64,000 nucleotides of DNA, from NCBI GenBank assembly GCA_963824265.1, contig CAWGOO010000002.1, positions 316,744 to 380,743 of the forward strand. Direction: 5' to 3'. Made by a program: the position numbers and the translations under genes. Source of the stretch: an uncultured Actinomycetota bacterium (lineage in GTDB: Bacteria > Actinomycetota > Acidimicrobiia > Acidimicrobiales > RAAP-2). The notes beneath the pieces are model-generated. The model ran no database searches and was not told the origin of the DNA. It was given only the letters and a program-made list of their open reading frames with translations. Below, piece by piece: positions 1 to 12,274 of the stretch (position 1 is its first letter; each line of letters starts with the position of its first letter).

Positions 1-615
1 GTCCTGGGCACCGACGATCCTCGACCGCTGGAACAGCGACGCCGCACTCTGCGCGGCGATCAGACCGTGGAAGTCCTGCTGGAGTCGGCTCATCGACGCG
101 TCGTCCTGGGCCACGAGCTCCGCGGCTGACTCGCCAGCCCCACCGGCGAGCGCGCCGGCCGAACCGGTGCTGGCGGCTGCAGTCGGTCCGCTGACCATCG
201 CATGCTGTCGGATCTTCTCGAGGATGGTGATCTCGCGATGACCGTCGATGGCGACGGCGGCCACCGCTCGACCTTCGTCCACGGTCGGCTCGGTGTGCAG
301 CGCGCCGAGCCACTGGACGAGCGTCGGGACGAGCGCGTCGAACGAGCGGAGCGACGGCTGGTCGCCGGTGGCCACCGAACCGCGGACCGACGAATCGGCC
401 GCGTAGAACGACTGGACCGCCCGTTCGGAGGAATTGAGGTCACCGCTGATGACGATGGCCGTCGACCGGTAGCTGCTCTCGCGCCCCTGCAACCCGAGGG
501 AGATGGCGACGGTCACGATCAGCGCCAGCACCGGCACGCCGACGATCAACAACGACTTGGTGAGCAGACGGGCGTTGGACCACCGGCGGGCCGTCCACTG
601 CAAGGGGGATGGCAT
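1..615 (-). CDS. Membrane sensor protein, N-terminal part only (TM helix plus CHASE3-like extracytoplasmic domain); continues beyond the left edge
   Basis: My own translation of the minus strand from ATG at 615-613 gives MPSPLQWTARRWSNARLLTKSLLIVGVPVLALIVTVAISLGLQGRESSYRSTAIVISGDLNSSERAVQSFYAADSSVRGSVATGDQPSLRSFDALVP... The frame stays open to base 1, so it is absent from the ORF track. It has one hydrophobic helix followed by a helical region resembling CHASE3. Confidence 0.55.
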   Translation of the reverse strand, partial: MPSPLQWTARRWSNARLLTKSLLIVGVPVLALIVTVAISLGLQGRESSYRSTAIVISGDLNSSERAVQSFYAADSSVRGSVATGDQPSLRSFDALVPTLVQWLGALHTEPTVDEGRAVAAVAIDGHREITILEKIRQHAMVSGPTAAASTGSAGALAGGAGESAAELVAQDDASMSRLQQDFHGLIAAQSAASLFQRSRIVGAQD

Positions 616-722
616 CAAGGTGGCGTCGATCGGCCGGACCGGATTCGGTACTCTCTGACTGCGAACGATCCGCTGGTCTTTGGCGTGGTCAAGAAGGCAG
701 CCTTTTGGGAGGTCGTGACGCA

Positions 723-1808
723 GTGAACGATAGTGCCGAGCCGTCGACCGGCACGGACCACGAAGGCGTGCCGAAGCCGGCGACGGCGCCGTCCAAAGGA
801 CGGGTGCTCGTGGTCGAGGACGACCGGGCGACCCTCCAGTTCGTCATCACCGCCCTGACCCGAGGTGGCTTCACCGTCACGGGCGTCTCGGACGCGCAGC
901 AGGCGCTGGCGGTGCTCGATGACGAGCCGTGGGAGGTGCTGCTGGCCGACATCGGGCTCCCGGACCGGTCCGGCTTCGAGCTGGTCGCCGACGCCCGGCG
1001 CCGACGGCCGCAGATGGCTATCGCCCTGATGACCGCCGACGCCAGCGTCGACGTGGCCGTGCGGGCGCTGCGGATCGAGGTCGACGACTTCCTCCCGAAG
1101 CCGATCTCGCCGACGACGCTCGTCACCCAGGTCGAGCGGCTGGCCGAGCGCCAGCGGACCCGCGACCGAGGTACGGAGCGCGTCCTCGCGGTCGGCGCTC
1201 ACCCCGACGACGTCGAGATCGGCGTCGGTGCCATCTTGTTGAACCACCGCGTGACCGGCGACGACGTCGCCATCGTCACGATGAGCCGCGGGGCGCGCGG
1301 CGGCGAAGCGATCCGCCGGGCCGACGAAGCCGCCCGGGCGGCCCAGATGATCGGGGCCCGACTGTTCCTCGAGGATCTCGAGGACACCCGGATCCCCGAG
1401 GGCGATCCGACGGTTGCGCTCCTCGAGGGCGTCATCAAGGAAGTCCGCCCGACTGTCGTCTACACCCACACGCTGGCCGACTTGCACCAGGACCACCGCA
1501 ACGTGCACCGGGCGACGATGGTCGCCGCCCGCCGAGTGCCGAACGTCTACTGCTACGAGAGCCCGTCGGCGACCGTCGAGTTCCGGCCGGTCCGCTTCGT
1601 CAGCGTCGACGACCATGTCGACGGGAAGATCGACGTCATCGGCGCGTACACCAGCCAGACCGAGGTCCGCCAGTACCTCGCCGAAGATCTCGTCCGGGCC
1701 ACCGCCCGCTACTGGGGCCGGTTCGGGGCGACGAAGTTCTCGGAGCCACTCGAAGTCGTCCGCGACCGGCAGGCCGGCGCGCCGATCGCGGCCGCCGAGA
1801 GCCCATGA
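723..1808 (+). CDS. Response-regulator receiver domain fused to a PIG-L/LmbE-family N-acetylglucosaminyl deacetylase
   Basis: ORF 609..1808. I moved the start to the in-frame GTG at 723 because ATG 609 would overlap the divergent gene start. REC motifs: VLVVEDD, LLADIGLPD (phospho-acceptor Asp), LMTAD, LPKP. C-terminal half carries the PIG-L motifs GAHPDDVEIG and HQDH. Confidence 0.85.
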   Translation: MNDSAEPSTGTDHEGVPKPATAPSKGRVLVVEDDRATLQFVITALTRGGFTVTGVSDAQQALAVLDDEPWEVLLADIGLPDRSGFELVADARRRRPQMAIALMTADASVDVAVRALRIEVDDFLPKPISPTTLVTQVERLAERQRTRDRGTERVLAVGAHPDDVEIGVGAILLNHRVTGDDVAIVTMSRGARGGEAIRRADEAARAAQMIGARLFLEDLEDTRIPEGDPTVALLEGVIKEVRPTVVYTHTLADLHQDHRNVHRATMVAARRVPNVYCYESPSATVEFRPVRFVSVDDHVDGKIDVIGAYTSQTEVRQYLAEDLVRATARYWGRFGATKFSEPLEVVRDRQAGAPIAAAESP

Positions 1809-2878
1809 CGACCGACGACGGTTCGGACGCCGCGATGACCGTTGCTCGATCGACCGGATCAGCTGACCGACCCGACCCGGTCCGCGTGCTCGTCACCGGG
1901 GCCGGCGGTCCGGCGGCGGTGGCGTTTCTCGAAGGGCTCGCCGACGACGGGCAGCTGCCAACCGACTGCTGGGCCGTCGACATCGACCCCTGCGCCGCCG
2001 GCCTCTATCTCGTGCCCCGAGATCGCCGAGCCCTCGTTCCGAGGGGGGACGACGCGGCGTTTGTCGACGTCGTCCTCGAGACGTGCCGGCAGGAGCGGAT
2101 CGACGTCGTCGTGCCGACCGTCGACAGCGAGCTCATCCCCGTCGCCCGTCGGCTCGGTGACTTCGACGACCTCGGCGTGGCGGTTCTCTCGGCGTCGCTG
2201 GCGACGCTCGAGCAGTGCCTCGACAAGTGGGCGCTGCTGCAGGCCTGTGGTCCGGACATCCCGCTCCCGCTGGGTGGGCTCCTCGATGACGACTTCGACC
2301 CGGCGTCGCTCGGCTGGCCGGTGCTGGTGAAGCCGCGCCGGGGCAGTGGATCGAGGGGCATCGCGCTCGTCGAGGACGCGGCCGCCTTCGACCGACTTCC
2401 CCGCAACGGTTCGCAGCTGGTCCAGGAGTACCTGCCCGGGCCCGAGTACTCCGTCGACGTCCTCGCCTACCGGGACGGGCACGTCGCCGCCGCCGTACCG
2501 CGCAGTCGGCTCAAGGTCGACTCCGGGATCGCCGTCGCCGGCTGCTCGCTGCGCCGGCCGGCGCTCCAGGCGGCCGCCGCCGCGGTGGCCCGGACGGTTG
2601 GTCTGACGAGCGTCGCCAACATCCAGTTCCGAGAGGACGCCGACGGGCTGCCCAAGCTGCTCGAGGTCAACCCCCGCTTCCCGGGGGCGATGCCGCTGAC
2701 CGTGGCCAGTGGCGTCAACATGCCGGCGCTGGCCCTGGCCGACCGGCTCGGTCACACCGTGCCGAGGGACGTGCCGTTCCGCTCGATCGCCATGGTCCGG
2801 CACTGGGCGCAGACGTTCCTCTCGGTGGAGGAGTTCGAGGCCACCGGTGTCCCGATGCCGCTCGGGCTCCCGACGTGA
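1805..2878 (+). CDS. ATP-grasp domain protein (carboxylate-amine ligase-like)
   Basis: Internal ATG 1805 of ORF 929..2878, overlapping the upstream stop (ATGA). The first 290 aa of that ORF are an Arg/Pro-rich shadow frame. Motifs VLVKPRRGSGSRGI, QEYLPGPEYSVDV and ANIQFRED..LLEVNPRF are typical of the ATP-grasp fold. Confidence 0.8.
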   Translation: MTTDDGSDAAMTVARSTGSADRPDPVRVLVTGAGGPAAVAFLEGLADDGQLPTDCWAVDIDPCAAGLYLVPRDRRALVPRGDDAAFVDVVLETCRQERIDVVVPTVDSELIPVARRLGDFDDLGVAVLSASLATLEQCLDKWALLQACGPDIPLPLGGLLDDDFDPASLGWPVLVKPRRGSGSRGIALVEDAAAFDRLPRNGSQLVQEYLPGPEYSVDVLAYRDGHVAAAVPRSRLKVDSGIAVAGCSLRRPALQAAAAAVARTVGLTSVANIQFREDADGLPKLLEVNPRFPGAMPLTVASGVNMPALALADRLGHTVPRDVPFRSIAMVRHWAQTFLSVEEFEATGVPMPLGLPT

Positions 2879-2915
2879 CGCCGCCCGGCCGGCGGCGGAT
2901 CGTTCGGTCCTGACC

Positions 2916-4403
2916 GTGTGGGGCACCGTCGGTGACGACATCCTCATCGCCCTCGTGCTCGTCGGCGCGATCCCACTTCTCGTCAACGCCTACCAGTACC
3001 TGCTCATCGGGGCGGTTCGCTGGAAGAACCACTACGGCTCGGTTGGCCCGTACCTGCCCCGCGTCGCCGTCGTCGTGCCGGCCTGGAACGAGGCGGCCGT
3101 CCTCGATGCCTCCGTCGACCGGCTCATGGCCCTCGACTACCCGCCGGACCGGCTCCGCGTCTACGTCGTCGACGACGCCAGTACCGACGGCACCCCGGCG
3201 CTCATGACGGCCAAGGCCCGTCAGTACCCCGGCGCGGTCTTCCACCTCCGGCGCGAGAAAGGCGGCGAGGGTAAGTCGCACACGCTGAACCACGGCCTCT
3301 CGGTCGTGCTCGCCGACGACTGGATGGAAGCGCTCCTCATCATGGACGCCGACGTCATCTATCGGCCGGACTCGCTGCGCAAGATGACCCGGCACCTGGC
3401 CGACGAGCGCGTCGGCGCCGTGACGGCCTACATCAAGGAAGGTTCGGAGCCGAGCCACACGCTGACCCGTTTCATCGAGTACGAGTACATCACCGCCCAG
3501 GCCGCCGGCCGGCGGGCCCAGAACGTGCTCGGTGCGGTCGCCTGTCTGGCCGGCGGGGCCCAGCTCCACTCGCGGGCCAACCTCGAGGCGCTCGGCGGGC
3601 GGATCGACTCGTCCTCGCTAGCCGAGGACACGTTCACGACGTTCAATACGCAGATCGGCGGCCGCCGGGTCGTCTTCGAGCCGAACGCGGTCGCGCTGGC
3701 CGAAGAGCCGGAGCGGCTGAGCGGGCTGTGGAAGCAACGGCTCCGGTGGGCCCGGGGCAATGTCCAGGTGACGTCGACCTACAAGAAGTTGTGGTTCCGG
3801 CCGTCCCCCGTCCACCGGCTGGGCGGGATCTCGTTCGGGCTGATCTGGTTCAGCATCTTCCTGCTCCCGCTGTCGATGATCATCTCGTCGGCCAGCCTCG
3901 TCGTCCTTTACTTCACCGACCTCAACTCCGCCCAACACGTCTTCCGGGCGCTGTGGATCGTCAACGCGCTCTGCTTCGTCTTCACGACCGTCTTCACCTT
4001 GCTCATCGACCGCGCCGCCGGGCGGCGGACGTGGCTGCAGGGCTTCTTCTTCCCCGGATCCGTCTCGCTGCTGATCATCCTCTACACCTGCTTCCCGACG
4101 GCCTTCCACTGGCTCCTCGGCCGTTTCGAGAACGTCACCCACTGGGAGCTGACCATCGACCAGCGGCACGACGTCATGCTGTTCGCCTACGTCTGGGTCG
4201 CCGGCTGCATGCTGGCGGCCTATCTCGTCAAGAAGATCGACGACGGCGGCGCCCACCGGACCGCCGCCGGGCTGCTCTACGTCGTTGGCTACGGACCGAT
4301 CCTGTGCGTCGTCACGCTCGCCGCCTACGTCAAACAGCTCCGCCGGGCCGAGATGCACTGGGAGAAGACGGAGAAGTCCGGCCGGGTGGCGGTGCCCGAG
4401 TGA
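2916..4403 (+). CDS. Family 2 glycosyltransferase of the processive synthase type (PgaC/IcaA/NodC/chitin-synthase-like), integral membrane
   Basis: ORF 2709..4403 with the start set to in-frame GTG 2916. Motifs: VVVPAWNE, VVDDASTDGT, IMDADV, LAEDT, QRLRWARG (Q-x-x-R-W). One N-terminal and several C-terminal hydrophobic helices. Confidence 0.85.
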   Translation: MWGTVGDDILIALVLVGAIPLLVNAYQYLLIGAVRWKNHYGSVGPYLPRVAVVVPAWNEAAVLDASVDRLMALDYPPDRLRVYVVDDASTDGTPALMTAKARQYPGAVFHLRREKGGEGKSHTLNHGLSVVLADDWMEALLIMDADVIYRPDSLRKMTRHLADERVGAVTAYIKEGSEPSHTLTRFIEYEYITAQAAGRRAQNVLGAVACLAGGAQLHSRANLEALGGRIDSSSLAEDTFTTFNTQIGGRRVVFEPNAVALAEEPERLSGLWKQRLRWARGNVQVTSTYKKLWFRPSPVHRLGGISFGLIWFSIFLLPLSMIISSASLVVLYFTDLNSAQHVFRALWIVNALCFVFTTVFTLLIDRAAGRRTWLQGFFFPGSVSLLIILYTCFPTAFHWLLGRFENVTHWELTIDQRHDVMLFAYVWVAGCMLAAYLVKKIDDGGAHRTAAGLLYVVGYGPILCVVTLAAYVKQLRRAEMHWEKTEKSGRVAVPE

Positions 4404-4425
4404 CCGGCCGAACGGCGGTGCCCGG

Positions 4426-4599
4426 GTGACCGCCGGTACGGAGCCCGGCCGACCGGAACGGACCGACGAGGAGTGGGCGGCGATCTTCCGCGACGACCTC
4501 GCTAGCTCGCGGGCCGCCGAGCGGCGACTGATCTGGATGGAGCTGATCGCCCTCGGCGTCGTGGCCGGCCTCGTCGTCCTGCATTTCGTCTGGCACTAG
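4426..4599 (+). CDS. Small membrane protein (57 aa, single C-terminal TM), hypothetical
   Basis: In-frame GTG 4426 of ORF 4285..4599, 23 nt after the GT2 stop. Sequence: VTAGTEPGRPERTDEEWAAIFRDDLASSRAAERRLIWMELIALGVVAGLVVLHFVWH. No family recognised. Confidence 0.35.
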   Translation: MTAGTEPGRPERTDEEWAAIFRDDLASSRAAERRLIWMELIALGVVAGLVVLHFVWH

Positions 4600-4723
4600 C
4601 CACCTTCGTTCGGCCCGGACGGACGCCCGCCGACCCGGGCCGGGTGAACCCCCCGTGTTACCCTTTCGTCCAGGGGTCACTGGCGGGCGAGTCCCCGGCG
4701 ACGAGCAGTGACCGGAGGCGGAC

Positions 4724-6509
4724 GTGGCCAGTCGGATGACGGACGGCGATTCCTGGCGCGCCGGCGGTCGACCCGGGCCAACCACCGGCCACGCAGTTGG
4801 CACCGGCCTCGGTCCGGACGACTTCCAGCTCGTCTTCGAGGCGATCCCTGGCTGCTACCTGGTGCTCGACCCGTCGCTCACCATCGTCGCGGTCAGTAAC
4901 GCCTATCTCGAGGTCACGGCGAACGAACGGGACCAGATCGTCGGCCGCCATGTCTTCGATGCCTTCCCCGACAACCCCGACGACCCCGACCCGACCGGGG
5001 TAGCGAACCTGCGGGCCTCCCTCGAACGGGTTCTGGCCCGCGCCCAACCCGACACGATGGCCGTCCAGAAGTACGACCTCGAGCGGCCGGCCGGCAGCGG
5101 GCGGTTCGAGGCGCGGTTCTGGAGCCCGGTCAACTCGCCGGTCCTCGGACCGGACGGCCGGGTGGCGTTCGTCATCCACCGGGTCGAAGACGTCACCGAA
5201 CTGATCGGTCGGCGCGGCGAGCCCGGCGAACCGCGCCAAGGCGCCGAGCGGCGGGCGGACCGGCGCGGCGGGCAACCCGACGACCGGCGGGCGGCCGGAA
5301 GCGGTGCCGTCGAACGGCGCCGGGACGACGGGATGGTCATCGATATCCTCCAGCGGTCCCAGGAGCTCGCCCAGGCCAATCGCCAGCTCGAGGACGCCCG
5401 CTCGGCGACCAGCGGGTTCCTCTCCCGAATGAGCCACGAGCTGCGCACCCCCCTTACGTCGATCCTCGGCTTCGGCGAGCTGCTGTCGATGACGGCGCTC
5501 GACGACGACCAGCTCGAGTGGGTCGACCTCTCGCTGACCGCGGCCCGACACCTCCAGGCGCTCCTCGACGACGTGCTCGACATCGCCCGCATCGAGGCTG
5601 GCCACCTGTCGATCTCGCTCGAGCCGGTCTCGCTGGCCTCCATCCTGCACGACGCCTACGAGCTCGCCCAACCGCTGGCCGCGAGCTACCGGGTGCTGAT
5701 CGGCGAGCCGCCGAAGGAAGGTCGGACGCTCTACGTGCTGGCCGACCGTCAGCGCTTGCGCCAGGTACTGCTCAACCTGCTCTCGAACGCGGTGAAGTAC
5801 AACGACGAGCGGGCCCGGGTGACGCTCCGCGTGGAGGTCATCGCCGACGATCGGGTTCGGGTCCACGTCACGAACACCGGCACCGGCCTCACCGAAGAGG
5901 AGCTCGGGCGGCTCTTCGTGCCGTTCGAGCGACTGGGAGCCGAGGAGCGGGGCATCGAGGGGACGGGCCTCGGGCTCGCCCTCTCGGCGGACCTCATGAA
6001 GAGCATGAACGGACGGCTCACCGCGTCGAGCGTCCTCGGTGCCAGCTGCACGTTCACCGTCGAGCTCGCGCTCGCCTATCCGCCGGCCGTCGAGGAATCG
6101 GCTCGAGCCGGCGCGGCCCGGGATGCCCACGCCTACGAGCGCTCCCGGACGGTGCTCTACGTCGAGGACGTCGCGTCGAACGTCAAGCTCGTCGAGCAGA
6201 TCCTGCGTCGGCGACCGAACATCACGTTGGTGTCGACGTCGCGCGGCCACAACGCGTTGGGGCTGGCGAAGGAGCACCGACCGGACCTCGTCCTGCTCGA
6301 CCTGCACCTGCCCGACATCCCCGGCGAAGAGGTCCTCGCCCGGCTCCGGGCCGACGAGGAGACCGACGCCATCCCGGTCATCGTGCTCAGTGCGGACGCC
6401 ACGAGTGTCCATCGCCGAGATTCTGATGGCCGCCGGTGCCGACGAGTACCTGACGAAGCCGATCGGTGTGCGCGAGCTCCTCGACCTGATGGACGAGCGG
6501 TTCGGGTGA
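4724..6509 (+). CDS. Hybrid sensor histidine kinase (PAS - HisKA - HATPase_c - REC); frame broken inside the receiver domain near 6401-6410
   Basis: The frame of ORF 4724..6904 shows a PAS domain ([13 protein letters not shown]), H-box [25 protein letters not shown] and a receiver ([26 protein letters not shown]). After about 6403 it turns Arg-rich. The frame of ORF 6039..6509 supplies the expected receiver end [32 protein letters not shown]. Confidence 0.85.
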
Positions 6510-6904
6510 AGGCGGTCCTCAACGTCCTGTGGCTCGTGCTCTGCGGGTTCTGGCTGGCCATCGGCTACGCCGTGGCCGGCATCGTCATGTGCATCCTCAT
6601 CATCACGATCCCGTTCGGGATCGCCGCTTTCCGACTGGCCGCGTACGTCCTCTGGCCGTTCGGCCGGACGGTCGTCCGCCGGGACGATGCCGGCGCCGCG
6701 TCGACCGTCGGCAACGTCATCTGGTTCATCCTGGCCGGCTTGTGGATCGCCATCGCCCACATCGTGACCGGCGTCGTGCTCTGCCTGACGATCATCGGTA
6801 TCCCGCTCGGGATCGCCAACATCAAGCTCGCCGCCGTCGCCGTCGCTCCGTTGGGAAAGGACATCGTCGCCACCGACGACCCGCGGCTCCAACTCGCCGA
6901 CTGA
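6506..6904 (+). CDS. yccF: YccF-family (DUF307) inner membrane protein
   Basis: GTG 6506 overlaps the kinase stop (GTGA). Two DUF307-type repeats are present: [29 protein letters not shown] and [29 protein letters not shown]. Confidence 0.8.
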
Positions 6905-7142: not shown

Positions 7143-8247
7143 ATGGAGATGAGCCGCAGTTCCGGGTGTTGGACCGGGGGCTTCCACCGCCGGTGGTCGT
7201 CGCCCCTTCCTGCAGTCACATCAGTTGCTGCCACGCGCTCCGGCACGGCGTTCTTGGGCACGGCGTTCCTCGGCACGGTGCTAGTGGGCACGGTGCTAGT
7301 GGGCACGGTGCTGTTGGGAACGGTCCTCGTCGGTGCGATCGGGATCGGCGATGCCGGCGCCAGCCCGACGGCGACGAGCCAAGCTGGCGGCAGCCAGCTG
7401 GGCGTACCGGCAACCACGACGTCGCAGTACGAGAACGACGCCAGTCCGGCGGCGCTCTACGCCCAAGGCGAGGCGGCCGGATTCCGCCGGAGCGCAGGGC
7501 ATGGTCATCCTCGACTTCGGCCGACCGGCCGACGAGGACACAACGCTCGGGACGATCACCCAGGACGACACCTTCGCGTCGTTCCCCTCGATCGCCGCGG
7601 CCGTCGAGAGCTACATCGCCGGGTACTTCCGGTCGGCTCCCGCCGGGCTCCGCCTGCACGTGGCCATCGGCACGAACGACAGCTGCGGCACCGGGCAGCC
7701 GTGCGGCAGCGTCGTCTGCGGCTGCGCGTTCGAGCCGCCGAGCTTCTGGACATGGGGCACCTCGCTGGCGTCGGCGGTCGAATCGGTGCAGGCGTGGGCG
7801 ACCCGGACGAAGCAGCAGTCGTCGTTCACGGACACCGTGACGGTCGTCGCCGGCGATGACGTCGAGCCGGCTTTCGACCCGGGCTACCTGAACACCTACA
7901 ACCTGCTGGCCGGTTATGCGGCCGAGGTCGGCGGCTACCAACCCGCCATGGTCGACTACGGCTCCGCCGAGCCCGGCTATTGGACGCAGGCGCAGCTGCT
8001 CAAGGTGGCGGACGGGTTCCGACCCGATGTCGTCTTCCCGGAGCTCTACTTTCCGACACACGTCGCCGAGTGGGCGTCGCTGGTCGGCTACGCCAAAGCC
8101 CACGGTCAGAACATGACGATCTTCGGCGTGCTCACCCAAGCGCCGGACGGCCAGACATCGGCGACGAGCTACACGTCGATCGAGCGGGCGATCGCGCCGA
8201 TCACCGGCCAGTCGTCGATCCAGTGGACGTCGAACATCGGCCCCTGA
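7143..8247 (+). CDS. Secreted or membrane-anchored hypothetical protein; frame break near 7491
   Basis: The N-terminus from ORF 7143..7859 has a hydrophobic anchor built from pentapeptide repeats, then ..YAQGEAAGFRR. The rest comes from ORF 7333..8247 (AQGMVILDFGRPADEDTTLG...IQWTSNIGP). The join requires a 1-nt shift at about 7491. Confidence 0.65.
7242..7331 (+). repeat. Six tandem 15-bp units (ggcacggyg ytnbtg) inside the CDS, encoding GTAFL-GTAFL-GTVLV-GTVLV-GTVLL-GTVLV
   Basis: Direct reading: ggcacggcgttcttg / ggcacggcgttcctc / ggcacggtgctagtg / ggcacggtgctagtg / ggcacggtgctgttg / ggaacggtcctcgtc. Confidence 0.9.
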
Positions 8248-8779: not shown

Positions 8780-9478
8780 TCAGCCGAGCCGGGTAGCCGC
8801 CTTCTTGGCCAGCGAGGTGACGAAGGTTGTCGAGAGCACCGTCGACAGACCGACCGGGGCCAGAACGGCGATCGTCTTCCCACTGCGAATGACGACGAAG
8901 TCAGCGTTCATCTGGAGGGCCTGCCCGTCGACCGTCAGGGGGATGGCGAGCTTCAGCGCGGTGGTCGCCGATCCCTCTCGTGGAAACGGCAGCCGCGACG
9001 TCGTGATCTTCGACGCTGTGATGCCGGAGCCTGTTGCCCCCGAAGCGATCGACTTGGCCAGGAGCTGGCCGACGCACGTCGGCGCCTTGGCGTTGGAGAA
9101 GAAGCCATAGGTGCGCTTGGCCGCGCTTGTCGAGGCGAAGATGCCGACGAGCTCGAAGACGAACTGGGCGGTCTGCTGCTCGGTGAAACTCGACTGTGCG
9201 CTCGGCGCGTTGGCGTCGAGGCCCGAAGTCGAGGTCCCCTCGCAGGACGCGACCTCAGTGAAGTCGTTTGTCGACCCTGTCGACGTCGACGATGTCGATG
9301 TGCTCTTTGTCACCTTCCACCCGGCGGGCAGGTCGGACAGGTGCAGCAGCTCACGGTGGGCGGCCGCGCTCGTCGGCTTGGCCGACGCGCCGGCTGGGAC
9401 GACCGCCACCGAACCGGCGGCGAAGGTCAGCCCCACTAAGGTCGCTCCGAGACCGGTCCACCAGCTGCGCTGTCCCAT
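8780..9478 (-). CDS. Secreted hypothetical protein (signal peptide, Ser/Thr-rich linker)
   Basis: ORF 8780..9478. MGQRSWWTGLGATLVGLTFAAGSVAVVPAGASA followed by a globular-looking sequence. No family recognised. Confidence 0.7.
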   Translation of the reverse strand: MGQRSWWTGLGATLVGLTFAAGSVAVVPAGASAKPTSAAAHRELLHLSDLPAGWKVTKSTSTSSTSTGSTNDFTEVASCEGTSTSGLDANAPSAQSSFTEQQTAQFVFELVGIFASTSAAKRTYGFFSNAKAPTCVGQLLAKSIASGATGSGITASKITTSRLPFPREGSATTALKLAIPLTVDGQALQMNADFVVIRSGKTIAVLAPVGLSTVLSTTFVTSLAKKAATRLG

Positions 9479-9585: not shown

Positions 9586-10537
9586 TCAGGGTGCCTCGAT
9601 CACCTGTCCGGCATACGAGAGCCCGCCACCGAAGCCGAGCAGCAGGATCGGCTCACCGGTCTCGATCGGTTCACGCTCGAGCAGCTTCGACAGCGCCAGC
9701 GGGATACTGGCCGACGAGGTGTTACCGGACTCGACGACGTCCCGGGCGACAACGGCCTTCACCGGTCCGACCCGCGCCATGATCGCCTCGATGATCCGCA
9801 GGTTCGCCTGGTGCAGGACGATCGCCTTCAGATCCTCGAGGGCGACGCCGCCCCGGACGCAGAATCTCCCCGACGATGCCCGGGAGCACGGTCGTGGCCC
9901 ACCGGTAGACCGCGGCGCCCTCCTGGGTGAAGACCGGCGGCTCGCCGTCGATGACGACGGCGTTGCCGAGCTCGGGCAACGACCCCCAGACCACCGGGCC
10001 GATCCCGGGCCGGTCGTCGGTACGCTCGACCGCAGCCGCCCCCGCGCCGTCGCCGACGAGGACGCAGGTGCTCCGATCCGTCCAGTCGGTGACGGCCGAC
10101 AGCTTGTCGACCCCGATGACCAGACCACGGGTCGCCGCGCCGGCTCGCATCGTGTGGTCGGCCAACGCCAGGCCGTGGGTGAACCCCGAGCAGGCGGTGT
10201 TGACGTCGATCACCGCCAGCCCGGCGGTGATGCCCAACTGCGCGGCCACCCGGCTGGCGACGTTCGGCGATCGCTCGACCGCGGTGCAGGTCGCCACGAC
10301 GAGCAGGTCGATGTCGCCGGGTGCCCAGCCGGCCCGCTCGAGGGCCCGGGTGGCGGCCGCCGCCGCCATGTCGCTCACGGTCGTCTCCGGTGCCGCGATA
10401 TGACGGGTCTCGATGCCGACGCGGCGCCGGATCCACTCGTCGCTCGTCTCGACGAGCTGCTCGAGATCGGCGTTCGTCATCACCGTCTCCGGCTGGAAAT
10501 GACCCAGCGCGACGACCCGCGAGCCCGACATTCTCAC
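9586..10537 (-). CDS. Beta-ketoacyl-ACP synthase III (FabH-like); frame break near 9857
   Basis: N-terminal 230 aa come from ORF 9722..10537 (DEWIRRRVGIETRH, NTACSGF, VLVGDGAGAA). The C-terminus comes from ORF 9586..10128 (VLHQANLRIIE, GNTSSASIPLAL, GFGGGLSY). The join EILR/RGGVALEDL needs a 1-nt shift. Confidence 0.85.
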
Positions 10538-10701
10538 CTCCTGCGCCCCCGGCCACCCCGACGGTGGCTCGCCGGCCAGCCTACGTGGCGACCGGTCGCG
10601 GCCGGTGGTCCTATGGGTCGGGCCGCCGATCCGGGCAGCGTCACATCCGCGGCTTCTCGTGGGTCATTGTCATAGGGACCGCGGAGCTGAGGACGGGGCA
10701 G

Positions 10702-11619
10702 ATGCACGACGACGACGAGTGGCTGGCCAGACGCTTCGAGGAACACCGCTCGCACCTTCGGGGAGTGGCCTACCGGATCCTGGGCTCGCTGGCCGAGGCC
10801 GACGACGCGGTCCAAGACGCCTGGGAGCGGGCCAGCCGGGCCGGCGCAAAGGACGTCGAGAACGTCGGGGGGTGGCTGACCACGATCGTCGCCCGGGTCT
10901 GCCTCAACAAACTGCGCTCCCGCCGAACCCGGCGCGAGGAGCCGTTGGAGACGAGCCTCCCCGACCCGATCGTCACCGCCGACGCGGCTGCGCTCGGCCC
11001 GGAGGACGAGGCGCTGCTGGCCGACTCGGTCGGCCTCGCTCTCCAGATCGTGATCGAGACGCTCGCACCGGCCGAGCGGCTCGCCTTCGTTCTCCACGAT
11101 CTCTTCGGCGTCCCGTTCGACGAGATCGGTCCGATGGTCGACCGGACGCCCCAGGCGACGAGACAGCTGGCCAGTCGGGCCCGCCGCCGGATCAAAGGCG
11201 CAGCGACGCCTGCGCCCGAGCGGGACGTGCCGCGGCAGCGGGCGGTCGTCGACGCGTTCTTCGCGGCGGGCCGGGCCGGCGACTTCGACGCGCTCGTCGC
11301 GCTGCTCCACCCCGACGTCGTCCTTCGGGCCGACTACGGTCCCGGCCGGCCGAGCCGGTCGATCGTCGCCCGAGGCCCCGCAGCCGTCGTCGAACAGGCC
11401 CGACTCGGCGCACGCATCGGCGGCACCCTGCACCCGGCGCTCGTCAACGGGGCGGCCGGGATCGTCGTCACGGCTCGCGGCCGGCCGGTGGCGGTGATGG
11501 GCTTCACCGTCGCCGACGGCCAGATCGTCGAGATCGACGCCATCGCCGACCCGGCGCGGGTCAGGCGGGTGGCCGCCGCCGTGCTCGGCCAGGGCGCGGA
11601 TCCGGGTCTGGCGGAGTAG
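10702..11619 (+). CDS. ECF sigma factor with a SnoaL-like C-terminal extension (SigJ/ECF41-like)
   Basis: Internal ATG 10702 of ORF 10321..11619. MHDDDEWLARRFEEHRSHLRGVAYRILGS..DAVQDAW (region 2), ERLAFVLHDLFGVPFDEIGPMVDRTPQATRQLASRARRRI (region 4), then a roughly 100-aa extension. Confidence 0.85.
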   Translation: MHDDDEWLARRFEEHRSHLRGVAYRILGSLAEADDAVQDAWERASRAGAKDVENVGGWLTTIVARVCLNKLRSRRTRREEPLETSLPDPIVTADAAALGPEDEALLADSVGLALQIVIETLAPAERLAFVLHDLFGVPFDEIGPMVDRTPQATRQLASRARRRIKGAATPAPERDVPRQRAVVDAFFAAGRAGDFDALVALLHPDVVLRADYGPGRPSRSIVARGPAAVVEQARLGARIGGTLHPALVNGAAGIVVTARGRPVAVMGFTVADGQIVEIDAIADPARVRRVAAAVLGQGADPGLAE

Positions 11620-11626
11620 CCCTAGC

Positions 11627-12175
11627 TCAGACCGGCGGTGCGGGGACCACTTCGCAGATCCCCGCTCCGCAAAGGTGCTCGAGCGGAGCCCCCCAGAGCG
11701 CGGTGTCGAGCAGCTCCACCAGCGCACCCGAAGCGAGCTGGAGATAGCAGGCGCGAATCTCGGCCAAGAGACCGTTCTCCCCTTCCGCTTCGAGCACCTC
11801 GGCGAGCCGTTCGCCGTCCTGCGTGGCCGCGCTGAACAAGCGGGCGCCGCCGGCGATGAGCTCGCGCGCCGTGCCGGCGAGGTCGGGGGCCCAGTAGGCG
11901 ACATGGCTGATGCCCGGGCGTTCTTCCAGCAGCCGTCGCTGGGGCGAGTCCGGCGTCGTCGCCGAGGGGGCGATGAGCTCGAGGGCCGGTCCACCGGCCA
12001 ACCGGCCGAACGCCATCGTCACCCGCTGGTCGACCACGCCACCCCCGAGGCCGTCGTACGTCGCGAACAAGTGGGGGGCGGAGACGACCCAGGGTCCGGT
12101 GACCAGCCCGGTGTAGTCGGCCATGGCCGCCGGTAGGTCGTGCACCGTGGCGCCGACGTGCATGAGCGACAGCAT
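11627..12175 (-). CDS. VOC (glyoxalase/bleomycin-resistance/dioxygenase) family protein
   Basis: ORF 11627..12232 trimmed to MLSLMHVGATVHDL.. Second half has ISHVAYWAPDL. Confidence 0.7.
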   Translation of the reverse strand: MLSLMHVGATVHDLPAAMADYTGLVTGPWVVSAPHLFATYDGLGGGVVDQRVTMAFGRLAGGPALELIAPSATTPDSPQRRLLEERPGISHVAYWAPDLAGTARELIAGGARLFSAATQDGERLAEVLEAEGENGLLAEIRACYLQLASGALVELLDTALWGAPLEHLCGAGICEVVPAPPV

Positions 12176-12274
12176 CTGGCCCCTTCCCACCGCGTCCCCG
12201 GCGAGCGTAGTTTTGCGACCGGCGACCCTCAACTGATGTCGGCCTCGTGACCAGCGCCGCCGAGCCGCGCCCCG

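What the first reader, a model, noticed from the sequence alone, without database searches (positions are those of the whole stretch)
1..6904. Phosphorelay-wired glycan synthase / deacetylase / ATP-grasp module: candidate undescribed polysaccharide-modification system
Six co-directional, tightly packed genes occupy this locus, with a divergent CHASE3-like membrane sensor at 1-615. They are REC::PIG-L deacetylase (723-1808), an ATP-grasp ligase (ATGA overlap at 1805-1808), a processive GT2 synthase with D/DxD/QRLRW motifs and multiple TM helices (2916-4403), a 57-aa TM ORF, a PAS hybrid histidine kinase (4724-6509) and YccF (GTGA overlap at 6506). From established knowledge, Q-x-x-R-W GT2 synthases polymerise and export beta-glycans such as PNAG, chitin oligomers and cellulose. 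PIG-L/LmbE enzymes remove the N-acetyl group from GlcNAc conjugates (MshB, BshB, PIG-L). ATP-grasp enzymes ligate a carboxylate to an amine. My inference is that a GlcNAc-containing polymer or glycolipid is made, de-N-acetylated, and the freed amine re-acylated. This follows the same chemical logic as mycothiol and bacillithiol biosynthesis, but applied to a synthase product. The deacetylation step would be gated by phosphorylation, with two sensor kinases in cis. I do not recognise this combination as a named system.
Basis: partly seen in the sequence, partly recalled or inferred. Interest (0 to 1): 0.8.

Follow-up and report, generated by a model that had tools for sequence, protein, structure and literature searches.

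The report
Kinase-controlled sugar-polymer synthase gene cassette
This is a real and widespread but unstudied bacterial gene cassette that pairs a membrane sugar-polymer synthase with a phosphorylation-switched deacetylase and an ATP-dependent ligase, so it probably makes a chemically modified surface or secreted glycan under direct sensor-kinase control.

Summary
The PAS hybrid kinase carries a 1-nt insertion near 6421-6424. CHASE3 is supported only indirectly. YccF is not part of the unit.

The cassette is conserved far beyond chance. Among 49 REC::PIG-L loci with at least 5 kb on both sides, 43 have the ATP-grasp, 37 the GT2, 36 a PHP phosphatase and 33 a histidine kinase nearby. These loci span Actinomycetota, Thermoleophilia, Legionella, Marinicella, Polyangiaceae and Alphaproteobacteria.

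I found further parts:
- a conserved mini-protein of about 50 aa with one membrane helix, right after the GT2;
- a phosphatase (PHP, or His_Phos_1 in one Legionella; one family has an ATP-grasp::PHP fusion), which is absent from this window;
- in every diderm locus with the GT2, a signal-peptide/TPR/beta-barrel-like protein like PgaA or BcsC.

The GT2 model matches hyaluronan, cellulose and chitin synthases. The receiver and PIG-L catalytic residues are invariant.

Best reading: a synthase-dependent, hexosamine-type glycan system. Its cytoplasmic tailoring enzymes act on a precursor or primer, gated by phosphorylation rather than c-di-GMP. The product and substrates are unknown. No curated family or paper I could search describes it; P2CS only lists an "LmbE" response-regulator class.

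The parts
1..615 (-). N-terminal 205 aa of a divergently transcribed membrane hybrid histidine kinase (sensor region). The gene is cut by the window edge.
   Evidence: The frame is open from 615 down to 1. It shares 83% nt identity with the start of the 666-aa HisKA-HATPase_c-REC gene of L081. It has no Pfam hit of its own. It aligns at 41% identity over 113 aa to the CHASE3-bearing kinase of L083.
723..1808 (+). REC::PIG-L: a response-regulator receiver domain fused to an LmbE/PIG-L-type zinc de-N-acetylase.
   Evidence: Pfam PF00072 covers residues 28-137 and PF02585 covers 155-268. D33, D34, D76, T104, K126, the AHPDD motif and the HQDH motif are invariant or nearly so in 19 and 51 homologues. 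The AF2 model has pLDDT 89. The PIG-L domain matches TT1542, BC1534, diacetylchitobiose deacetylase and BshB with TM-scores up to 0.80 on the target. 2364 homologues were found.
1805..2878 (+). ATP-grasp ligase of the PylC-like / ATPgrasp_Ter type, translationally coupled to the previous gene by an ATGA overlap.
   Evidence: PF15632 at 1e-32, PF02655 and PF21360. The NCBIfam PRK12767 models all score below their cut-offs. The best PDB match is 2pn1, which has no known function. It sits next to REC::PIG-L in 43 of 49 loci.
2916..4403 (+). Membrane-embedded family-2 glycosyltransferase with the architecture of a processive synthase.
   Evidence: Glyco_tranf_2_3, Glycos_transf_2, Glyco_trans_2_3 and Glyco_transf_21 all match. 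D86/D87, D144xD146, E237-D238 and Q274-R-x-R-W278 are invariant. The AF2 model has pLDDT 87 and pTM 0.87, with two N-terminal and several C-terminal long helices. The top Foldseek matches are PcManGT, Chlorella-virus and Xenopus hyaluronan synthases, BcsA, CesA and chitin synthases.
4426..4599 (+). Conserved mini-protein (57 aa here) with a charged N-terminal region, an invariant Glu, and a single C-terminal membrane helix. It is a likely synthase partner.
   Evidence: An ORF of the same kind directly follows the GT2, usually with a 4-nt overlap, in about 40 of 47 loci. These include Marinicella and Rhodospirillales. The alignment shows one invariant Glu just before the helix. It is called as a gene in L081, L082 and L083. 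It has no Pfam hit.
4724..6509 (+). Cytoplasmic PAS-HisKA-HATPase_c-REC hybrid histidine kinase, interrupted by a 1-nt insertion at about 6421-6424.
   Evidence: Pfam domains were found. The end of the receiver domain (…[13 protein letters not shown]…ERFG*) lies in another frame. The relatives L081 and L001 have the gene intact. Kinases flank the cassette in 33 of 49 loci.
6506..6904 (+). YccF-family inner-membrane protein. It is a neighbour specific to this lineage and probably not part of the cassette.
   Evidence: PF03733 at 130 bits and NF008740 at 171 bits against a cut-off of 123. It follows the kinase in the window and L081. It is not among the recurrent flanking families.

Best explanation
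The locus is one copy of a widespread, uncharacterised cassette for a glycan that is made and exported by a membrane synthase and controlled directly by two-component signalling.

Synthesis and export (inferred). The GT2, probably together with the conserved mini-protein, polymerises a sugar from a nucleotide donor and passes the chain through its own membrane channel. The sugar is most likely an N-acetylhexosamine, as in the PNAG or chitin type. In bacteria with an outer membrane, a protein with TPR repeats and a probable beta-barrel completes export.

Tailoring (inferred). The soluble enzymes work on the cytoplasmic side, on a GlcNAc-bearing donor, primer or acceptor rather than on the finished polymer. 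The PIG-L domain removes an N-acetyl group. The ATP-grasp then ligates a carboxylate, such as an amino acid or organic acid, to the freed amine. In most relatives a phosphatase removes a phosphate from that intermediate. This window lacks the phosphatase.

Control (inferred). The receiver domain fused to the deacetylase makes that step depend on phosphorylation by the adjacent sensor kinases. This is analogous to the way CheB's receiver gates its esterase. It would stand in for the c-di-GMP control of the classical synthase-dependent systems.

Shown: gene content, conservation, intact catalytic motifs, the synthase-like fold and the accessory genes. Inferred: sugar identity, enzyme substrates, order of steps and kinase partners.
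For: Conservation:
- REC::PIG-L is followed by ATP-grasp, (PHP), GT2, the mini-ORF and then (REC) plus a kinase across several phyla.
- A Pfam census of 187 flanking genes found only two-component proteins as recurrent neighbours.

Synthase:
- The model scores pLDDT 87 and aligns over its full length to hyaluronan synthases, BcsA, CesA and chitin synthases.
- The best curated sequence family is PgaC/IcaA at 1.8e-34, covering model positions 39-365 of 407.
- The catalytic motifs are invariant.

Export:
- All six diderm loci with the GT2 (three Legionella, Marinicella, Rhodospirillales, Polyangiaceae) carry a gene for a protein with a signal peptide and TPR repeats.
- In three of the six the C-terminus ends in an aromatic residue (…INHAF, …RFTW, …GRTF), as in outer-membrane barrels. 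The three Legionella proteins end …IYWG, …IYWA and …IYWQ.
- The gene lies next to the GT2 in five of the six loci and beside the PHP gene in Polyangiaceae.

Deacetylase:
- The motifs are intact.
- The nearest folds are GlcNAc and chitobiose deacetylases and BshB.

Ligase and phosphatase:
- There is an ATP-grasp::PHP fusion protein, P0320.
- In L. drozanskii a His_Phos_1 phosphatase occupies the PHP position.

Location: the N-termini of REC::PIG-L and the ATP-grasp have no hydrophobic segment.
Against: - No product has been determined anywhere.
- The GT2 scores far below the PgaC/IcaA cut-off (119 against 422 bits) and the NodC cut-off (85 against 550 bits). The sugar is therefore not established.
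- One locus (L054) couples a GH81 gene to the GT2. All characterised GH81 enzymes are beta-1,3-glucanases, which points away from a hexosamine polymer.
- Three Leifsonia loci keep REC::PIG-L, ATP-grasp and PHP without an adjacent GT2, and six loci have REC::PIG-L alone.
- PIG-L enzymes of known function act on small GlcNAc conjugates (established knowledge).
- No PIG-L enzyme is known to act on a nucleotide sugar, to my knowledge.
- The interdomain geometry of REC::PIG-L is uncertain (pTM 0.68).
- Pfam finds no Hpt domain in either flanking hybrid kinase.
- One kinase is frameshifted here.
Confidence: 0.45

Rival explanations
1. A small glycoconjugate or glycolipid pathway with mycothiol, bacillithiol or GPI logic. 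The GT2 would add one GlcNAc to a phosphorylated, possibly lipid, acceptor at the membrane. The phosphatase would remove the phosphate, PIG-L would de-N-acetylate, and the ATP-grasp would ligate an amino acid to the amine. The product would be a GlcN-aminoacyl conjugate, not a polymer.
For: - The four chemical steps match the mycothiol route one for one: MshA, the MshA2 phosphatase, MshB and MshC (established knowledge). This includes the phosphatase that is conserved in 36 of 49 loci and is fused to the ATP-grasp in P0320.
- The nearest PIG-L relatives are BshB1, TT1542, BC1534 and chitobiose deacetylase, all of which act on small substrates.
- All the tailoring enzymes are cytoplasmic.
- Leifsonia loci keep the three soluble enzymes without a GT2.
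- The GT2 also matches Glyco_transf_21, the ceramide glucosyltransferase family, and weakly HpnI. Both are non-processive membrane GT2s.
Against: - The GT2 aligns over its full length to channel-forming synthases (HAS, BcsA, CHS), with five to six C-terminal helices.
- A conserved mini membrane partner accompanies it.
- A TPR protein with a barrel-like tail is present in every diderm locus that has the GT2, as in PgaA and BcsC systems.
- The GT is family 2, not family 4, and the ligase is not of the MshC/BshC type.
Confidence: 0.28
2. A Nod-factor-like signal. The GT2 would make short chito-oligosaccharides released in the cytoplasm, as NodC does. PIG-L would de-N-acetylate the terminal GlcNAc, playing the role of NodB. 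The ATP-grasp would re-acylate it, playing the role of NodA. The decorated oligomer would then be exported.
For:
- NodC is the second-best curated hit for the GT2, at 6e-24.
- The PIG-L fold is closest to enzymes that deacetylate the non-reducing GlcNAc of chitobiose.
- It resolves the topology problem.
Against: - The GT2 scores 85 bits against the NodC cut-off of 550.
- At 495 aa, with about seven long helices, the GT2 is HAS-like rather than NodC-like.
- No NodI/NodJ-type ABC exporter recurs next to the cassette.
- The TPR protein with a barrel-like tail suggests polymer export.
Confidence: 0.1
3. A beta-glucan synthase (curdlan-like or another glucan). The PIG-L, ATP-grasp and phosphatase trio would not touch the polymer. 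Instead it would make or destroy a small activator or primer of the synthase, under kinase control.
For: - In L. drozanskii (L054) a GH81 gene overlaps the start of the GT2 gene. All characterised GH81 enzymes are endo-beta-1,3-glucanases.
- Operon-encoded hydrolases usually match the polymer in synthase-dependent systems (established knowledge).
- Cellulomonas, which I recall as a producer of curdlan-type polysaccharide (from memory, not checked here), carries the cassette (L025, L026, L032, L062).
Against: - GH81 occurs in one locus only. No glycoside hydrolase family recurs in the census.
- The best curated matches of the GT2 are GlcNAc polymerases, not CelA (57 bits).
- The tight coupling of a GlcNAc-type deacetylase to the GT2 would be left unexplained.
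Confidence: 0.1
4. A chance juxtaposition of unrelated genes, with no functional unit.
For: None beyond the lack of experimental data. YccF and the particular kinases do vary between lineages.
Against: - The same order and the same translational coupling recur in Actinomycetota, Thermoleophilia, Gamma- and Alphaproteobacteria and Myxococcota.
- A REC-less trio of PIG-L, ATP-grasp and GT2 also exists.
- An ATP-grasp::PHP fusion exists.
Confidence: 0.02

Closest known systems
PNAG systems PgaABCD (E. coli) and IcaADBC (staphylococci)
   Same: - Both have a membrane GT2 synthase. PgaC/IcaA is the best curated sequence match.
- Both have a small membrane partner encoded right after the synthase, comparable to PgaD and IcaD.
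- Both include a de-N-acetylation step.
- In diderms, both have an outer-membrane protein with TPR repeats and a probable beta-barrel, like PgaA.
   Different: - The GT2 scores 119 bits against the family cut-off of 422.
- The deacetylase here is a cytoplasmic PIG-L/LmbE enzyme fused to a receiver domain. In PNAG systems it is an exported CE4 enzyme (PgaB or IcaB).
- This cassette adds an ATP-grasp ligase and a phosphatase.
- It has no c-di-GMP element and is flanked by kinases instead.
- The mini-protein has no detectable homology to PgaD or IcaD.
Nod factor core pathway NodC-NodB-NodA (rhizobia)
   Same: The chemical order is the same: a GT2 GlcNAc polymerase, cytoplasmic de-N-acetylation of a GlcNAc residue, then N-re-acylation of the freed amine. 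This is established knowledge.
   Different: - NodB is a CE4 enzyme and NodA is an acyl-ACP transferase. Here the corresponding enzymes are PIG-L and an ATP-grasp.
- The GT2 is not a NodC orthologue (85 against 550 bits).
- The GT2 has a larger, HAS-like membrane domain.
- No NodIJ exporter is present.
Mycothiol (MshA/A2/B/C) and bacillithiol (BshA/B/C) biosynthesis
   Same: Both use a PIG-L family de-N-acetylase, with BshB1 the best NCBIfam and PDB relative. The sequence of steps is the same: glycosyl transfer, dephosphorylation, de-N-acetylation, then ATP-dependent ligation to the amine.
   Different: - The glycosyltransferase is a polytopic GT2 synthase-like protein, not a soluble GT4.
- The ligase is an ATP-grasp, not MshC or BshC.
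- The deacetylase carries a receiver domain.
- Diderm versions include an outer-membrane export-type protein.
CheB (receiver-fused methylesterase) and other enzymatic response regulators
   Same: A receiver domain is fused N-terminally to a hydrolase, so that phosphorylation can switch catalysis directly rather than switching transcription. P2CS lists an 'LmbE' response-regulator class (PMC9487997).
   Different: The output domain and its substrate are different. No structure or biochemistry exists for REC::PIG-L. Whether the receiver occludes the active site is unknown (pTM 0.68).
Hyaluronan, cellulose and chitin synthases (Cv-HAS, BcsA, Chs)
   Same: The fold and motif set of the GT2 are shared: D, DxD, ED and QxxRW, interface helices and a transmembrane bundle.
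   Different: Sequence identity is 13-18%. There is no PilZ domain. The protein is much smaller than BcsA or Chs. The product is unknown.

Membership tests
Response regulator receiver domain (PF00072) | Pfam score above the gathering threshold, plus the acidic pocket, phospho-acceptor Asp, Thr and Lys. | tested here: met
   79 bits against a cut-off of 30.2. D33, D34, D76, T104 and K126 are invariant in 19 and 51 homologues.
PIG-L / LmbE zinc-dependent de-N-acetylases (PF02585) | Domain score above threshold, the AHPDD and HxDH metal and catalytic motifs, and the LmbE fold. | tested here: met
   80.7 bits against a cut-off of 28.2. H160, P161 and D162 are invariant and D163 is nearly so. D257 and H258 are invariant and H255 is nearly so. 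Foldseek matches TT1542, BC1534, Dac and BshB with TM-scores of 0.64-0.80 on the target.
PIG-L / LmbE zinc-dependent de-N-acetylases (PF02585) | Hydrolysis of the N-acetyl (or N-acyl) group of a GlcNAc conjugate. | not testable with these tools
   This needs an enzyme assay.
BshB1 bacillithiol deacetylase (TIGR04001) | Score above the curated equivalog cut-off. | tested here: not met
   78.2 bits against a cut-off of 182.5.
PgaC/IcaA poly-beta-1,6-GlcNAc synthase (TIGR03937) | Score above the curated equivalog cut-off. | tested here: not met
   119.4 bits against a cut-off of 422.3.
PgaC/IcaA poly-beta-1,6-GlcNAc synthase (TIGR03937) | Operon partners: an exported CE4 deacetylase (PgaB or IcaB) and PgaD or IcaD. 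| tested here: not met
   No polysaccharide-deacetylase family appears in the window genes or among the recurrent flanking families. A small membrane partner exists but has no family hit.
NodC chitooligosaccharide synthase (TIGR04242) | Score above the curated cut-off. | tested here: not met
   84.7 bits against a cut-off of 550.
Membrane-embedded processive GT2 synthases (BcsA, HAS, CHS class) | The D, DxD, (T)ED and Q(R/Q)xRW motifs. | tested here: met
   D86/D87, D144-A-D146, E237-D238 and Q274-R275-x-R277-W278 are invariant in 37 sequences.
Membrane-embedded processive GT2 synthases (BcsA, HAS, CHS class) | A GT-A domain packed on interface helices and a transmembrane bundle. | tested here: met
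   The AF2 model has pLDDT 87.2 and pTM 0.87. Full-length Foldseek alignments to Cv-HAS, XlHAS1, BcsA, CesA and Chs give probability 1.00 and TM-scores of about 0.5-0.58.
Membrane-embedded processive GT2 synthases (BcsA, HAS, CHS class) | Processive polymerisation coupled to translocation. | not testable with these tools
   The top hit, PcManGT, and Glyco_transf_21 relatives show that this fold also occurs in enzymes not known to be processive.
Synthase-dependent exopolysaccharide secretion systems (cellulose, PNAG, alginate, Pel) | An outer-membrane export protein with TPR repeats and a beta-barrel, in diderm bacteria. | tested here: inconclusive
   Six diderm relatives encode proteins with a signal peptide and TPR repeats, and three of these end in an aromatic residue as outer-membrane barrels do. 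No barrel family passes threshold: DUF2490 scores 23 bits against 29.8. The window organism is a presumed monoderm, so the feature does not apply to it.
Synthase-dependent exopolysaccharide secretion systems (cellulose, PNAG, alginate, Pel) | Post-translational activation through a c-di-GMP receptor. | tested here: not met
   No cassette protein has a PilZ, GGDEF or EAL domain. Receiver domains and kinases are present instead.
ATP-grasp superfamily, ATPgrasp_Ter family (PF15632) | Domain score above threshold. | tested here: met
   113 bits against a cut-off of 29.1. PF02655 and PF21360 also pass.
ATP-grasp superfamily, ATPgrasp_Ter family (PF15632) | Association with the Ter (tellurite-resistance) operon, which gives the family its name. 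| tested here: not met
   No Ter genes lie in the cassette or among the recurrent neighbours. A TerC gene lies about 8 kb away in L081 only.
CHASE3 sensor domain (PF05227), for the 1-615 fragment | A Pfam match. | tested here: inconclusive
   There is no hit even at E <= 10 in the window, L081, L082 or L001. The homologous kinase in L083 scores 55 bits, and the window fragment aligns to its N-terminus (E = 4e-9).
Multi-step His-Asp-His-Asp phosphorelay | An Hpt domain or protein between the hybrid kinase and the terminal receiver. | tested here: not met
   Pfam finds only PAS, HisKA, HATPase_c and REC in the flanking kinases. Hpt is not among the listed recurrent flanking families.

The most novel reading that the evidence does not exclude
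The ATP-grasp and REC::PIG-L may form a writer/eraser pair. The ligase would attach an amino-acyl or other acyl group to glucosamine on the donor, primer or nascent chain end. The phosphorylation-switched PIG-L amidase would remove acetyl or acyl groups. A two-component signal would thereby set the charge and chemistry of a secreted polyglucosamine-type polymer in real time. That would be a new mode of control for synthase-dependent exopolysaccharides, replacing c-di-GMP, and a previously unknown aminoacylated glycan found across Actinomycetota and some Legionella.
Probability: 0.15. Interest if true: 0.8.

Novelty: new variant of a known kind. Interest (0 to 1): 0.6.

Why it matters
Every well-studied synthase-dependent exopolysaccharide system (cellulose, PNAG, alginate, Pel) is switched by c-di-GMP and tailored outside the cytoplasm. 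This cassette keeps the synthase, adds a small membrane protein after it, and in diderms adds a TPR export-type protein. It replaces the regulator with a receiver domain fused to a cytoplasmic deacetylase. It also adds an ATP-dependent ligase and usually a phosphatase.

Some of these are REC-less. Thousands of metagenomic proteins also match. Carriers include the cultivable genera Microbacterium, Leifsonia, Cellulomonas, Blastococcus, Leucobacter and Legionella.

Working out the product would do three things:
- define a new modified glycan or glycoconjugate;
- give the first function for the 'LmbE' class of response regulators;
- show how monoderm Actinomycetota couple envelope or matrix chemistry directly to sensor kinases.

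The system is directly testable because cultured carriers exist.

Tried and rejected
1. Seven full-text literature searches found no description of the cassette. They combined PIG-L or LmbE with ATP-grasp, PHP, glycosyltransferase, cellulose synthase, response regulator, CheY and P2CS. The only relevant item is that P2CS lists an 'LmbE' response-regulator class. The Aravind-group lipocone paper does not cover it. The 2009 amidoligase paper (PMC3268129) is not held.
2. I looked for a polymer-specific hydrolase or sugar-nucleotide enzyme as a recurrent neighbour, to identify the product. A Pfam census of 187 flanking proteins found only kinases, PAS domains and receivers. GH81 (L054), GH65 (L075) and GH43 (L081) are single cases.
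3. I searched the whole 64-kb window for the PHP phosphatase and for second copies of cassette genes. None was found.
4. I tried to assign the C-terminal part of the diderm TPR proteins to a barrel family. Only a sub-threshold DUF2490 hit came up, and PDB sequence hits were TPR only.
5. A first flanking-gene picker that chose the longest ORF selected antisense ORFs in these high-GC loci. I replaced it with a GC3 filter.
6. I could not compare the GT2 with curdlan synthase CrdS, because no CrdS sequence or model was available in the tools.
7. Model coordinates are not exposed. I therefore could not inspect the channel of the GT2 model or the REC/PIG-L interface.
8. The 'chance cluster' reading and the reading of YccF as a component were rejected on the synteny data.

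Full report
**1. What is in the window**

The region is about 70% G+C. On the + strand it carries the following genes.

- **REC::PIG-L, 723-1808.** It starts with GTG, which agrees with the start of its 91%-identical homologue P0001.
- **ATP-grasp, 1805-2878.** It overlaps the previous gene by ATGA.
- **GT2, 2916-4403.**
- **A 57-aa ORF, 4426-4599.**
- **A PAS-HisKA-HATPase_c-REC hybrid kinase, starting at 4724.**
- **YccF, 6506-6904.** It overlaps the kinase by GTGA.

These assignments rest. On the - strand, 615-1 is the open N-terminus of a gene cut by the window edge.

Pfam confirms each assignment:

| Protein | Pfam families and scores |
|---|---|
| REC::PIG-L | PF00072, 79 bits; PF02585, 81 bits |
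| ATP-grasp | PF15632, 113 bits; also PF02655 and PF21360 |
| GT2 | Glyco_tranf_2_3, 109 bits; also three related GT2 families |
| Hybrid kinase | PAS_4, HisKA, HATPase_c, Response_reg |
| YccF | PF03733, 130 bits |

The mini-ORF and the upstream fragment have no hit. NCBIfam has no model that any cassette protein passes:

| Protein | Best NCBIfam model | Score (bits) | Cut-off (bits) |
|---|---|---|---|
| GT2 | PgaC/IcaA | 119 | 422 |
| GT2 | NodC | 85 | 550 |
| REC::PIG-L | BshB1 | 78 | 182 |
| ATP-grasp | PRK12767 'CPSase-like' models | all below cut-off | – |

**2. Corrections to the observation**

*The kinase is not one ORF.*
- Its receiver C-terminus (…[13 protein letters not shown]…ERFG*) lies in another frame.
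- I aligned the DNA to the closest relative, L081, which is about 90% identical in nucleotides. The window has one extra T (GATTCTG against GA-CCTG) at about 6421-6424.
- The insertion removes the receiver's conserved Lys.
- The two genes overlap, so the insertion also fuses the kinase frame to YccF. This is why ORF listing shows a 726-aa ORF at 4724-6904.
- L081 and L001 have the kinase intact.
- A second split gene lies only 3 kb away. The N- and C-terminal domains of FabH are in different frames at 9586-10537(-).
- Assembly indel errors are therefore at least as likely as real pseudogenes.

*'CHASE3-like' is only indirectly supported.*
- The fragment has no Pfam hit, even at E <= 10.
- It is the start of a hybrid kinase of about 666 aa.
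- It aligns to the N-terminus of the orthologous-position kinase in L083, which does carry CHASE3 at 55 bits.

**3. Is the arrangement more than chance?**

REC::PIG-L has 2364 database homologues at E < 1e-5. The top 120 all carry PIG-L, and 119 of them also carry the receiver domain. It found 571 stretches encoding a relative, and 80 loci were kept. The taxa include:
- Acidimicrobiales, which are the closest (82% identity);
- Microbacteriaceae, Cellulomonas, Blastococcus and Frankiaceae;
- Solirubrobacterales and other Thermoleophilia;
- Legionella, Marinicella and Lysobacterales;
- Polyangiaceae, Rhodospirillales and Longimicrobiales.

I ran tblastn and ORF clustering on these loci. They give a recurring order: REC::PIG-L, ATP-grasp, a gene of about 240 aa, GT2, and then often a stand-alone receiver and a PAS kinase.

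Among 49 fused loci with at least 5 kb on both sides, the counts within 9 kb are:

| Neighbour | Loci (of 49) |
|---|---|
| ATP-grasp | 43 |
| GT2 | 37 |
| 240-aa gene (PHP) | 36 |
| Histidine kinase | 33 |

Exceptions:
- Six loci have REC::PIG-L with neither the ATP-grasp nor the GT2.
- Three Leifsonia loci lack only the GT2.
- L002 has PHP and GT2 but no ATP-grasp.

I also ran a Pfam census of the nearest flanking genes, 97 proteins upstream and 90 downstream. The only recurrent families were HisKA/HATPase_c (11 and 22 members), PAS and Response_reg.

A REC-less trio of PIG-L, ATP-grasp and a membrane GT2 exists in Arthrobacter, Actinomycetaceae and others. This suggests the three-enzyme core also occurs on its own, without the receiver fusion.

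**4.

*(a) A phosphatase.*
- The 240-aa gene is a PHP-domain phosphoesterase (PF02811).
- It is absent from the window, from L001, from L081 and from the whole 64 kb.
- In Legionella drozanskii, a histidine-phosphatase-superfamily gene (PF00300) sits between the ATP-grasp and REC::PIG-L instead.
- P0320 is a 587-aa ATP-grasp::PHP fusion protein with seven member sequences.
- A dephosphorylation step tied to the ligase is therefore part of the ancestral pathway.

*(b) The mini-ORF is a real gene.*
- An ORF of 37-79 aa follows the GT2 in about 40 of 47 loci, usually with a 4-nt overlap.
- It has a charged N-terminus, an invariant Glu and one C-terminal membrane helix.
- It is found in Marinicella and Rhodospirillales as well.

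*(c) An export-type protein in diderms.*
- All six diderm loci with the GT2 encode a protein with a signal peptide and TPR repeats. These loci are three Legionella, Marinicella, Rhodospirillales and Polyangiaceae.
- Each protein has a non-TPR C-terminal region. In Marinicella, Rhodospirillales and Polyangiaceae it ends in an aromatic residue (…INHAF, …RFTW, …GRTF), as outer-membrane barrels do. The three Legionella proteins end …IYWG, …IYWA and …IYWQ.
- The gene lies next to the GT2 in five loci and beside the PHP gene in Polyangiaceae.
- This is the PgaA/BcsC architecture.
- No barrel family passes threshold.

*(d) The extra receiver.*
- In Acidimicrobiia it is fused to the kinases, making them hybrid kinases.
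- In Microbacteriaceae and Cellulomonas it is a separate small gene in front of a non-hybrid PAS kinase.
- Pfam finds no Hpt domain in the flanking kinases, and Hpt is not among the listed recurrent flanking families.

**5. The individual proteins**

*GT2.*
- D86/D87, D144xD146, E237-D238 and Q274RxRW278 are invariant in 37 homologues.
- The AlphaFold model has pLDDT 87 and pTM 0.87. It has two N-terminal helices, a GT-A domain and about seven further long helices.
- Foldseek against the PDB ranks hits in this order: PcManGT (a minimal cellulose-synthase-like fold), Chlorella-virus and Xenopus hyaluronan synthases over the full length, BcsA, plant CesA and fungal chitin synthases.
- Polyprenol-phosphate transferases do not lead the list.
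- The fold and the QxxRW motif are not proof of processivity. PcManGT is not known to be processive, and the protein also matches Glyco_transf_21.

*PIG-L.*
- AHPDD and HQDH are conserved.
- The model (pLDDT 89) matches TT1542, BC1534, archaeal diacetylchitobiose deacetylases and BshB.
- These enzymes take GlcNAc, chitobiose or small GlcNAc conjugates.

*Receiver.* All five signature residues are invariant.

*ATP-grasp.*
- It has a PylC-like N-domain and an ATPgrasp_Ter core.
- Its nearest solved structure, 2pn1, has no known function.
- More distant relatives are amino-acid ligases and biotin carboxylases.

**6. How it most likely works**

*Shown:*
- The cassette is conserved.
- The GT2 has a synthase-type fold.
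- The deacetylase and receiver motifs are intact.
- The ligase and the phosphatase are coupled.
- Diderm loci carry export-type partners.
- Kinases are the only recurrent neighbours.

*Inferred:*
- The GT2, with the mini-protein, makes and exports a glycan. A hexosamine backbone is the most economical guess for two reasons. PgaC/IcaA and NodC are the nearest curated families, and a GlcNAc-type deacetylase is genetically welded to the GT2.
- REC::PIG-L and the ATP-grasp have no export signal, and the ligase needs ATP.
- By established knowledge, synthases of this class elongate at the cytoplasmic active site while extruding the chain.
- The soluble enzymes therefore more plausibly act on the donor, a primer or an acceptor than on finished polymer.
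- The PIG-L step is placed under phosphorylation control, by analogy with CheB.

I put this model at 0.45.

*The main rival (0.28)* is a mycothiol-, bacillithiol- or GPI-like conjugate pathway. The four steps there are glycosyl transfer, dephosphorylation, de-N-acetylation and ATP-dependent ligation. They match the four enzymes one for one. The rival also explains the Leifsonia loci that lack a GT2. It fits poorly with the HAS-like membrane domain and with the diderm export-type protein.

*Other rivals:*
- A NodC/NodB/NodA-like oligosaccharide reading (0.10).
- A glucan reading (0.10), prompted by the GH81 gene fused in operon with the GT2 in L054.

**7. Comparison with what is known, and novelty**

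The cassette works most like a synthase-dependent exopolysaccharide system, but it fails the membership tests for PgaC/IcaA, NodC and BshB. It also lacks three features of the classical systems:
- the exported CE4 deacetylase;
- any c-di-GMP element;
- any known partner family for the mini-protein.

P2CS already catalogues an 'LmbE' response-regulator class (PMC9487997), so the fusion itself is not a new sighting. Seven full-text searches found no functional or comparative description of the cassette.

I class it as a new variant of a known kind and score interest at 0.6. It is widespread, testable in cultured bacteria and mechanistically unusual. Its product is still unknown, and the components are individually familiar.

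**8. Origin of the window (inference)**

The source is an uncultured member of Acidimicrobiales (Actinomycetota). The evidence is 82-93% protein identity to Acidimicrobiales/Acidimicrobiaceae MAG proteins and about 90% nucleotide identity to a JGI metagenome contig.

Noticed in passing
window 6415-6430 (within 4724-6904): There is a single extra T relative to the closest relative. It frameshifts the hybrid kinase inside its receiver domain and fuses it in frame to YccF, giving a 726-aa ORF. This could be a real pseudogene or fusion, or an assembly error.
   Followed up: yes
window 9586-10537 (-): The FabH (KAS III) gene is split. ACP_syn_III is in ORF 9722-10537 and ACP_syn_III_C is in a different frame at 9586-10128. 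This is a second frameshift within 4 kb, which suggests indel errors in the assembly.
   Followed up: partly
window 11622-14696 (-) and 11627-12232 (-): A 1024-aa FtsX-permease ORF runs on for about 200 low-complexity, Arg-rich residues over a same-strand Glyoxalase_4 ORF in another frame. This may be another frame or stop anomaly.
   Followed up: no
window 7333-8247 (+) and 8780-9478 (-): Two ORFs of 304 aa and 232 aa just downstream of the cassette have no Pfam or NCBIfam hit. The first is not present next to the cassette in the other loci examined.
   Followed up: partly
window 10321-11619 (+): This ORF has ECF-type sigma-70 regions 2 and 4 fused to a SnoaL-like domain. The true start is probably well inside the listed 432-aa ORF.
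   Followed up: no
L054 1079-3229 and 9164-9796 (Legionella drozanskii): A GH81 gene overlaps the start of the GT2 gene. All characterised GH81 enzymes are endo-beta-1,3-glucanases. A His_Phos_1 phosphatase takes the place of PHP between the ATP-grasp and REC::PIG-L.
   Followed up: partly
P0320 (metagenomic protein, 587 aa): ATP-grasp and PHP are fused into one polypeptide, with seven member sequences. This argues that the two enzymes act on the same intermediate.
   Followed up: partly
L010, L019, L024 (Leifsonia): REC::PIG-L, ATP-grasp, PHP, a receiver and a kinase are present, but there is no GT2 within 10 kb. The soluble trio may work with an unlinked transferase or have its own role.
   Followed up: no
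L065-L080, e.g. L075 6436-9593 and L068 9704-12815: These loci have a REC-less version of the trio: a 304-aa PIG-L protein with an unassigned N-terminal region of about 100 aa, an ATP-grasp, and a GT2 of 451-467 aa. In L075 it is followed by a GH65-family gene.
   Followed up: partly
L085 7042-9856 (-): A phosphoglucomutase/phosphomannomutase-family gene, fragmented in that assembly, lies divergent from REC::PIG-L. This is a single case and a possible link to sugar-phosphate supply.
   Followed up: no
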